A DNA stretch of 64,000 bases, from contig NC_043002.1 in the NCBI RefSeq assembly GCF_006345805.1, positions 32,426,001-32,490,000 of the forward strand, read 5' to 3'. The notes under the pieces were generated by a model. That model saw only the letters and a list, made by a program, of their open reading frames with translations. It had not been told where the DNA came from and did no database searches. Source of the stretch: Octopus sinensis (Eukaryota). This document shows positions 1-59,453 of the stretch, piece by piece (position 1 is the first letter of the stretch; each line of letters starts with the position of its first letter). The position numbers and the translations under genes are program-made.

Positions 1-1320
1 TAAATATAGCTGTCTGGAAATAGAACTTCTCTGCAAGGCAAAAATCATGAACTCCAAAGGAGTAACAAAGACATATCGGAATGACGGGCGACTCGTTCAA
101 GGAAAGATACACACAAATTCTGGCGTCATTCAGGGACAAAATAAAGGACTTGCCACATCCTTATCCAATATGATATGTGAATTGAAAAACAGGATGAGTA
201 AGCAACCCCCAGATAACATGGAGTATTCTTGCTAGAACTAGAAAATATAAGAGACGTGGTACGAAATGTGAACTTTGTATTACTGAAAAGCTACATATCA
301 TCCAGTCTAAAGGTAACATCTGAAACATTATGAGTGAAACCTTCTCGCCTTACATTCACAAACAATATTTTACATTCCAGCATTTCAATAAGGTAGTACG
401 ACACACGCACCCGATCCTACGAAACTAGGTTTTTTTTCCCTAAAAGTGAGAATTAAATATATACATCATATGAACTGCACACATAGAAGACACATGATGA
501 TCTACCTCCATGTACAAACAAACATTACACATACCCAAAGTATTATATATAAACAAAAGCAACTTTCAGAACAATTTTTCTCCCTAAGCCCAAAAGCCAA
601 GGGAGATAATCGTTCAGTGGGACCACTTGGTATCTTATTTTGTTTACGAGATTGTATCTGGAATTCCCATGATTTTTCATGTTTTAATCCAAAATGGAAA
701 CGAACACGAATTCCTCCATGCCACCGGCTTCAAAAATAAAGTATTTAAGTATTTTCTTAACTTGGAAACAATGGTAGCCTTAATACACAAATAAATAACT
801 TGTATTCATCAATGTATGTTGCGCATTCACTCTCATTGTTCAAAATTTACACACACACACACACACACACACACACACACCACATATATATATATTATAT
901 ATATATATATATATATATATTAACAATATTTAAGAAACTGATGGTTGACAAATCTATACTTGGGCGCCTATTAATTACACGAAAATGAGAAGTGATAAAA
1001 AAAAATACTCACAACGTGCCAATTCTCGTGTATGTGTTCGAAGAAGGCTGAAATAAGATGTAAAATATTAAACAATCATTTTAAGTGATGTTAGTTTAAA
1101 AACATTGTATTAACATACTGTTTTATTTAATTGCTGATGTGTAGAACTCTACTGCGATTAAGATGAGTTTGAGTGGCACACACTCGCGGAAACGCTCACA
1201 GAAACACATCCGCAAACTCGTATCTATTCATCCTTCCATTTATAAGTCTATATCCTTCTATGTATCAATCTGCATATCTATCTATATATCTATATCCATA
1301 TATATATCTCTCTCTCTCTC
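1..1320. repeat. Segmental duplicate (copy A) of 6412-7800, containing the 35-nt ITAM exon
   Basis: Near-identical sequence; track ORFs 47..235/6458..6646 and 446..739/6857..7150 are duplicates. Confidence 0.97.
1013..1047 (-). CDS. Cytoplasmic exon, ITAM module A second half ([11 protein letters not shown]), 35 nt, phase 0 to 2
   Basis: Acceptor cttatttcag, donor gtgagta; paralog of exon 7431-7465. Confidence 0.8.

Positions 1321-59453: not shown

What the first reader, a model, noticed from the sequence alone, without database searches (positions are those of the whole stretch)
1013..59453. Hidden SEA-domain transmembrane mucin with tandem ITAM-like motifs: a candidate invertebrate immune or mechanosensing receptor
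Seen: about 23 small exons, essentially invisible in the ORF track, splice in frame to PTS stalk + SEA (RNG|SVIV) + TM + KRKR + a tail with [16 protein letters not shown] and [16 protein letters not shown]. Known: SEA mucins such as MUC1 autocleave at G|SVVV and shed their ectodomain; ITAMs (YxxI/L-x6-8-YxxI/L) recruit Syk/ZAP70/Shark-family tandem-SH2 kinases. Inference: a sheddable mucin directly coupled to ITAM signalling in a probable cephalopod. I am not aware of this combination being described.
Basis: partly seen in the sequence, partly recalled or inferred. Interest (0 to 1): 0.9.

Follow-up and report, generated by a model that had tools for sequence, protein, structure and literature searches.

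The report
Octopus SEA mucin with tyrosine tail
This is a real but poorly annotated octopus gene for a cell-surface mucin whose inner tail carries recently duplicated tyrosine motifs shaped like immune-receptor activation motifs, but whether they signal that way is untested.

Summary
On the minus strand, 23 small exons (59453 to 1013) join in frame to 555 residues with no stop: PTS stalk, SEA domain with G|SVIV, transmembrane helix, KRKR, and two YxxI-x8-YxxI motifs. Octopus vulgaris and O. bimaculoides gene models are collinear across the SEA-to-tail junctions. One RNA-like run shows the exact junction that builds the second motif. An Argonauta homolog folds like MUC16 and TMPRSS6 SEA domains (Z 10.7). 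The gene is open at both ends and may be the 3' part of a MUC4-like VWD-EGF protein.

The second motif comes from a recent 6.4 kb duplication that the O. bimaculoides model lacks. At matching positions O. bimaculoides keeps the tyrosines but not the strict consensus (YMTM, YEEV); it has one strict motif elsewhere. Two relatives have none. ITAM-like motifs are already noted in MUC1, and ITAM-Syk/Shark signalling is known in oyster and fly.

Best reading: a self-cleaving transmembrane mucin with a phosphotyrosine docking tail. A true Syk/Shark ITAM receptor has about 25% probability. It is a new variant of a known kind.

The parts
59403..59453 (-). Exon 1 of the chain (PTS/linker-type mini-exon, phase 1-1, GC donor). 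Not the true first exon: no start or signal peptide
   Evidence: donor region 89% like that of exon 18 over 37 nt; untested by reads
55987..56040 (-). Exon 2, PTS mini-exon
   Evidence: same DNA read in another frame by the O. vulgaris model (tblastn)
55742..55786 (-). Exon 3, PTS mini-exon
40985..41029 (-). Exon 4, PTS mini-exon
33475..39984 (-). Exons 5-11: seven PTS exons, one in each ~1,072-bp exon-plus-intron repeat (39984-39907, 38888-38835, 37840-37763, 36769-36692, 35697-35620, 34624-34547, 33552-33475); weak acceptors, the second copy lost the usual AG
31893..32361 (-). Exons 12-14, PTS (32361-32287, 32161-32069, 31937-31893)
29777..29850 (-). Exon 15, SEA strand 1 and start of helix 1
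   Evidence: aligns to Argonauta P0011 and O. bimaculoides P0002
28294..28355 (-). Exon 16, SEA helix 1 and strand 2
   Evidence: 81% to P0002 over 21 aa
23433..23584 (-). Exon 17, SEA from the G|SVIV turn to strand 4
19834..19878 (-). Exon 18, juxtamembrane Thr-rich linker
   Evidence: present in P0002, skipped in P0001
15925..16054 (-). Exon 19, transmembrane helix and KRKR stop-transfer
   Evidence: hydropathy 3.25; 44 of 44 identical to P0001; helix in the P0002 model
11397..11499 (-). Exon 20 (tail unit A1), ends with YVEI, first half of motif 1
7431..7465 (-). Exon 21 (tail unit B1), YTNI, second half of motif 1
2193..2295 (-). Exon 22 (tail unit A2), ends with YVEI, first half of motif 2
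   Evidence: X3 depth 205-358 over the exon bins, 0 in the flanking bins
1013..1047 (-). Exon 23 (tail unit B2), YTRI, second half of motif 2; frame stays open beyond it
   Evidence: joint 1047/2193 CT..AC in run X3
1..7739 (.). Recent ~6.4-kb tandem duplication (1-1321 matches 6412-7739 at 97%), breakpoint in a (TC)n run; carries exon B and, by inference, exon A

Best explanation
This is the 3' part of an expressed Octopus gene for a type I transmembrane mucin. Shown or well supported: a PTS stalk built from duplicated mini-exons, a membrane-proximal SEA domain, one transmembrane helix, and an unstructured acidic tail built from a repeated two-exon unit rich in Yxx-hydrophobic motifs. Inferred from MUC1-type SEA proteins: the stalk is O-glycosylated; SEA cleaves itself at G|S and the halves stay bound until shear or microbial binding pulls the ectodomain off. 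Inferred: Src-family kinases phosphorylate several tail tyrosines, which then dock a mix of SH2 proteins. The tail works as a multi-phosphotyrosine docking array, as in MUC1 and transmembrane adaptors, whose dose was raised by recent duplication; tandem-SH2 Syk/Shark may be one reader but need not be the selected one. The likeliest setting is a mucosal or skin epithelial surface acting as barrier and damage or contact sensor (inferred; tissue unknown).
For: In-frame chain, 23 of 23 AG acceptors. Collinear models in two named Octopus species. Exact GT-AG joint in run X3 and not in DNA-like X13. SEA fold of the Argonauta homolog, 43% identical to the window's domain over 104 aa: pLDDT 85, G-S between strands 41-50 and 54-62; top three matches are SEA domains, Z 10.7, 10.1, 10.0, rmsd 2.7, 2.9, 2.4 over 98, 101, 92 residues. 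Profile hit to ADGRF1 residues 159-234, E 1.4e-4. G-S invariant in 9 of 9 aligned sequences. Tail pLDDT under 50 over most of residues 171-248 of P0002. 3 of 3 alignable tyrosines kept in a tail that is 34 of 77 identical, while +3 residues vary I, M, V; P0002 has 7 tail tyrosines in varied contexts. Atlas feature neighbours of the TM-plus-tail part include MUC1, SCIMP, LIME1 and GAPT, all under 0.9 and so leads only.
Against: No Pfam SEA hit for P0001, P0002 or the two SEA exon pieces at E up to 1; Foldseek gave nothing at E 0.001 or better; the P0002 model, which lacks strand 1, reached only Z 6.8, tied with RRMs. The window's own spliced domain was not folded. Cleavage, glycosylation and phosphorylation are untested. 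Tyrosine conservation rests on one ortholog and three residues. The PTS exons have weak acceptors and no read support here. Both Octopus lineages carry at least one strict ITAM consensus, which fits the Syk/Shark rival better than a generic array.
Confidence: 0.5

Rival explanations
1. True ITAM receptor: after ligand binding or shedding, Src phosphorylates both tyrosines of each motif and recruits the tandem SH2 of Octopus Syk or Shark, driving phagocytosis, wound migration or immune gene induction.
For: Both motifs fit Yxx[I/L]x(6-9)Yxx[L/I] (PMC9546547) with acidic residues upstream. A single motif arises in 0.15-0.55% of 200,000 shuffles. Both are kept in the O. vulgaris model, and O. bimaculoides has a strict motif (YEEI-x7-YMNI) made from a different tyrosine pair. 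ITAM-Syk signalling is reported in oyster (PMC6994640) and ITAM-Shark in fly (PMC4503800).
Against: Strict consensus at 0 of 2 matching sites in O. bimaculoides. The second motif comes from a recent duplication missing from that model. No motif in P0003 or P0004. A 0.5% rate gives many chance matches across a proteome (inference). Octopus Syk/Shark was not looked for, and expression in hemocytes is unknown.
Confidence: 0.25
2. Structural glycocalyx mucin whose tyrosine motifs are unphosphorylated Yxx-hydrophobic sorting or endocytosis signals; the ITAM spacing is an accident of exon lengths and duplication.
For: All four motif halves fit the Yxx-hydrophobic sorting pattern (recalled consensus). 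The +3 residue varies among I, M, V in the ortholog. Relatives without the repeats share the FxIxRP end seen in P0001, so the family exists without ITAMs.
Against: Acidic context and the number of tyrosines (5 in the window's partial tail, 8 in P0001, 7 in P0002) are more than sorting needs and resemble kinase substrates (inference).
Confidence: 0.15
3. The model is partly wrong upstream: many repeat PTS exons are skipped or dead, or belong to a neighbouring paralog, so the real product is a short SEA-TM-tail protein or a different fusion.
For: Weak acceptors, one lost AG, one GC donor and dead mini-exon copies. P0002 begins inside SEA strand 1 with no stalk. P0001 reads these exons in another frame and skips two SEA exons. 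Argonauta has two near-identical SEA models on nearby locus tags.
Against: All 14 stalk exons are phase 1-1 and meet SEA exon 15 in phase; the repeat exons diverge less than their introns (2.9% against 4.5%); PTS stretches flank SEA in Argonauta P0011.
Confidence: 0.1

Closest known systems
Vertebrate SEA transmembrane mucins (MUC1; MUC16 SEA structures)
   Same: PTS stalk, SEA with G-S in the strand 2-3 turn, one TM helix, tyrosine-bearing tail. MUC1 cleaves at GSVVV (PMC9564314, passages) and has putative ITAM- and ITIM-like motifs (PMC6204366, passages).
   Different: Mollusc; no orthology shown (10-15% identity in the structural matches); stalk encoded by many mini-exons; strict, duplicated YxxI-x8-YxxI motifs split across introns.
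Invertebrate ITAM receptors: oyster CgIgR, Drosophila Draper, Hydractinia Alr proteins
   Same: Single-pass receptors with ITAM-consensus tails (PMC6994640, PMC4503800, PMC9546547; passages).
   Different: Their ectodomains are not PTS-SEA (Ig domains in CgIgR and Alr by the passages read; EGF-type in Draper, recalled). Syk/Shark coupling is reported for CgIgR and Draper and is untested here.
Public models O. vulgaris CAI9724672.1 ('mucin-4-like') and O. bimaculoides XP_052824449.1 (uncharacterized)
   Same: Same gene or its ortholog: 183 of 208 and 129 of 222 identical in the SEA-to-tail alignment.
   Different: CAI9724672.1 reads the PTS exons in another frame, lacks two SEA exons and the linker, and adds VWD, C8 and EGF domains; XP_052824449.1 starts inside SEA. 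Neither name mentions SEA or ITAM, and Pfam finds no SEA in either.
SEA-TM relatives ending in FxIxRP (P0003, P0004; organisms not named)
   Same: SEA, TM and the C-terminal FxIxRP motif also present in P0001.
   Different: Short tails without the tyrosine repeat or any ITAM consensus.

Membership tests
SEA transmembrane mucin | PTS-rich repeat stalk | tested here: met
   310 aa, 49.7% P/T/S, 14 exons; splicing of these exons not tested with reads
SEA transmembrane mucin | SEA fold | tested here: met
   By proxy: Argonauta homolog (43% over 104 aa) matches SEA structures at Z 10.0-10.7; profile hit to ADGRF1. The truncated ortholog alone is inconclusive
SEA transmembrane mucin | Match to Pfam SEA PF01390 at its cut-off | tested here: inconclusive
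   No hit for P0001, P0002 or the exon pieces, but none holds the whole domain; 4 of 9 further relatives hit SEA, 3 above cut-off
SEA transmembrane mucin | G|S motif in the strand 2-3 turn | tested here: met
   G52-S53 between strands 41-50 and 54-62; invariant in 9 of 9 rows
SEA transmembrane mucin | Autoproteolysis and shedding | not testable with these tools
   needs protein work
SEA transmembrane mucin | Single TM helix with basic stop-transfer | tested here: met
SEA transmembrane mucin | N-terminal signal peptide | not testable with these tools
   5' end lies outside the window; no genome held
ITAM receptor | Yxx[I/L]x(6-9)Yxx[I/L] in a cytoplasmic, unstructured tail | tested here: met
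   two copies with 8-residue spacers; one junction seen in run X3; low-confidence tail in the ortholog model
ITAM receptor | Strict motif conserved at matching positions in orthologs | tested here: not met
   kept in the very close O. vulgaris model; 0 of 2 in O. bimaculoides, which keeps 3 of 3 alignable tyrosines and has one strict motif elsewhere
ITAM receptor | Dual phosphorylation and binding of Syk/ZAP70/Shark tandem SH2 | not testable with these tools
ITAM receptor | Host encodes Syk or Shark | not tested
   reported for oyster (PMC6994640, PMC13344425); not checked in Octopus
MUC4-like (VWD-C8-EGF) mucin | VWD, C8 and EGF domains on the same chain | tested here: inconclusive
   present in P0001 but outside the window, and that model changes frame at the join

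The most novel reading that the evidence does not exclude
An invertebrate self-cleaving SEA mucin that is itself an ITAM receptor: force or microbes pull off the ectodomain and the remaining stub signals through Syk/Shark. Its ITAMs were built anew in Octopus by exon-pair duplication, from different tyrosine pairs in two lineages, and the duplicated exons are diversifying faster than their introns. This would link glycocalyx mechanosensing directly to the Src-ITAM-Syk module and give a natural case of ITAM birth.
Probability: 0.2. Interest if true: 0.8.

Novelty: new variant of a known kind. Interest (0 to 1): 0.5.

Why it matters
It corrects a mis-modelled cephalopod gene and documents a PTS-SEA-TM mucin in a mollusc; such mucins have been described mainly in vertebrates (recalled from Lang et al. 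2007, which was not held; PMC4948705 passages cover only Xenopus SEA/PTS and MUC4-like proteins). It offers a concrete candidate for signalling at the octopus body surface or on hemocytes. It also shows how an ITAM-shaped motif can arise at an exon junction and be multiplied by a small tandem duplication. If Syk/Shark binding is shown, it would be a direct mucin-to-ITAM link; I found no paper holding 'SEA domain' with 'ITAM', though those searches missed the MUC1 review and so are weak.

Tried and rejected
No genome is held for the window, so neither end of the gene could be followed; no RNA holder listed (17 of 24 runs hold part of the SEA exon; none is on record as RNA). Run X1 had no cover of the two tail exons and X6 showed no 1047/2193 joint; these blanks are no evidence either way. 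Pfam found no SEA in P0001, P0002 or three exon pieces. Foldseek gave no match at E 0.001 or better; MUC16 SEA ranked second at E 1.2e-3, TM 0.59, among ferredoxin-like folds. The P0002 model gave best Z 6.8. Word-index searches found only P0002 itself and nothing for the P0001 C-terminal part among shorter proteins; the exhaustive search with P0002 gave 10 proteins at E 0.001 or better, and no named squid or cuttlefish protein was among them. Both Atlas calls gave scores under 0.9. No second SEA exon was found in 59301-64000. Earlier-findings look-ups were empty. Paper searches returned 0; one search returned nothing relevant; two papers were not held. I did not run a complex prediction: no Octopus Syk sequence was at hand and phosphotyrosine cannot be modelled. 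I rejected the two-motif shuffle value (5e-6) as a significance figure because the motifs are duplicates. I rejected the P0001 reading frame for the repeat exons because it is not PTS-rich and drops two SEA exons that P0002 has.

Full report
Observation. The window is AT-rich eukaryotic DNA full of microsatellites and retroelements. From a splice-site scan and direct reading I picked 23 exons from 59453 to 1013. A first try had one boundary off by a base and one acceptor without AG; after correcting these, the chain is 1,669 nt and 555 aa with no stop, 23 of 23 AG acceptors, 22 GT donors and one GC donor. It reads: 310 aa with 49.7% P/T/S, a SEA-like stretch with G|SVIV at 357, a short Thr-rich linker, a hydrophobic helix from 426, KRKR at 449, and YVEI-x8-YTNI and YVEI-x8-YTRI at 492 and 538. 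It begins in mid-codon and has no stop, so the gene runs off both ends.

Is it more than chance? Arbitrary candidate exon pairs give junction-spanning ITAM matches easily: 89 matches among 2,337 pairs on the minus strand and 14 among 1,215 on the plus strand, mostly microsatellite junk. Outside evidence decides. The SEA exon finds two proteins among 49 candidates: O. vulgaris CAI9724672.1 (P0001) and O. bimaculoides XP_052824449.1 (P0002; names). P0002 is collinear with the chain from SEA strand 1 to the second YVEI (129 of 222 identical). P0001 matches 183 of 208 columns and has the same tail junctions. Both are gene models, and I did not check their RNA support. Laying four runs on 925-2355 showed the joint 1047/2193 with CT..AC ends in X3 (one contig, depth 133), with depth 205-358 over exon 22 and 0 in the flanking bins. 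The DNA-like run X13 has depth in all 30 bins and no such joint. An X6 contig stops at 2295, the predicted acceptor, with 285 letters beyond it that lie elsewhere. X3 and X6 are only guessed to be RNA, and only 1 of 22 junctions was tested. The window is from an Octopus very close to O. vulgaris (TM exon 44 of 44 identical).

SEA domain. Pfam does not call SEA in P0001, P0002 or single exons. Of 9 further relatives, 4 hit SEA and 3 pass the cut-off. A profile of the octopod domain and relatives hits ADGRF1 159-234 at E 1.4e-4 with the G-S aligned. The Argonauta homolog P0011, 43% identical to the window's domain over 104 aa, folds at pLDDT 85 as strand-helix-strand-strand-helix-strand with G-S in the strand 2-3 turn. 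Its top three matches among 48,161 chains are MUC16-type and TMPRSS6 SEA regions (Z 10.7, 10.1, 10.0; rmsd 2.7, 2.9, 2.4). Foldseek was weaker, and the ortholog P0002, which lacks strand 1, was inconclusive. MUC1 cleaves at GSVVV (PMC9564314, passages), driven by strain in that hairpin, with force needed to part the halves (PMC10556640, passages). Cleavage here is inferred.

The missing ends. P0001 extends upstream with VWD, C8-3_MUC4 and EGF domains, two PTS mini-repeats and a piece 47% identical to SEA exon 15 over 32 aa. It then reads the window's PTS exons in another frame and skips exons 15, 16 and 18. So the full protein may be a MUC4-like chain with two SEA domains, or the model may fuse neighbours. 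Argonauta has PTS on both sides of a SEA. Downstream, P0001 has a third A unit ending in YEEI and a FxIxRP motif shared with P0003 and P0004.

Origin of the motifs. The tail is a repeat of a 103-nt exon A and a 35-nt exon B; each motif forms at an A|B junction. Positions 1-1321 match 6412-7739 at 97%, with the break in a (TC)n run. By alignment, P0002 has A1-B1-A2-C-A3' while P0001 has A1-B1-A2-B2-A3-C, so the second motif is a by-product of a recent 6.4-kb duplication of B plus A. The introns around B1 and B2 are 98.4-98.6% alike, yet the exons differ at 4 of 35 nt, giving three amino-acid changes and no silent one (P 0.005 at 2% background). This hints at diversifying selection or intron conversion, on small numbers. 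One motif arises in 0.55% of shuffles of the tail and 0.15% of shuffles of one unit.

Conservation. The tail is 34 of 77 identical to O. bimaculoides; 3 of 3 alignable motif tyrosines are kept, but the +3 residues are I, M and V, so neither matching site is a strict ITAM. That species has a strict YEEI-x7-YMNI from another tyrosine pair. P0003 and P0004 have none. The picture is selection for several acidic-context tyrosines, with ITAM spacing recurring but not fixed.

Mechanism. Most likely (0.5): a glycosylated, self-cleaving surface mucin whose tail is a Src-phosphorylated docking array for several SH2 proteins. Rivals: a true Syk/Shark ITAM receptor (0.25); sorting motifs on a structural mucin (0.15); a wrong upstream model (0.1). 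Nothing here gives tissue or function. Mucin-4-like proteins occur in O. vulgaris skin mucus (PMC11431876, passages; supplements not read), but I did not check that they are this gene.

Comparison and novelty. It works like MUC1 in layout, and MUC1's tail is already described with putative ITAM- and ITIM-like motifs (PMC6204366, passages). ITAM-bearing invertebrate receptors are known: CgIgR with CgSyk (PMC6994640), Draper with Src42A and Shark (PMC4503800) and Alr proteins (PMC9546547), all read as passages; PMC13344425 (passages) reviews mollusc Syk. I found no paper holding SEA domain with ITAM or cephalopod with SYK, tyrosine kinase and immune, but the library lacks most subscription papers and these searches missed the MUC1 review. 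It qualifies as a SEA transmembrane mucin on the features I could test. It should be called ITAM-like, not an ITAM receptor, because strict conservation was tested and not met and binding is untested.

Noticed in passing
window 7431-7465 and 1013-1047: The duplicated B exons differ at 4 of 35 nt, all changing amino acids, while flanking introns are 98.4-98.6% alike; in P0001 the paired A2 and A3 units are only 25 of 34 identical.
   Followed up: partly
window 33300-40200: Seven ~1,072-bp exon-plus-intron repeats; the acceptor seen in the 32161 exon (AG) is TG here and the next AG 17 nt on keeps the frame; one copy lost that AG too. A likely source of stalk-length variation by exon skipping.
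   Followed up: partly
window about 56625-56675 and about 31480-31501: Decayed copies of the PTS mini-exon with changed splice sites.
   Followed up: no
P0001 (CAI9724672.1) residues about 843-1294: The public O. vulgaris model translates the PTS exons in another frame, giving an artificial Asp/Asn/Arg-rich repeat, and loses half of SEA.
   Followed up: yes
window 17620-18100: A 484-bp near-perfect palindrome (98.8%) in the intron before the TM exon, probably a MITE-like element.
   Followed up: no
window 42050-52000, 3214-3960, about 60200-60900: Reverse-transcriptase-like ORFs (368, 419, 234, 516 aa) and mariner-like transposase remnants inside introns or upstream; labels recalled from the translations, not searched.
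   Followed up: no
window 2254: An X3 contig (depth 252) reads another base here, changing Leu to Trp as in the third unit of P0001 and in P0002; an allele or a copy difference.
   Followed up: no
P0001, P0003, P0004 C-termini: A shared FxIxRP motif ends these SEA-TM proteins; it may be the older signalling or trafficking signal of the family.
   Followed up: no
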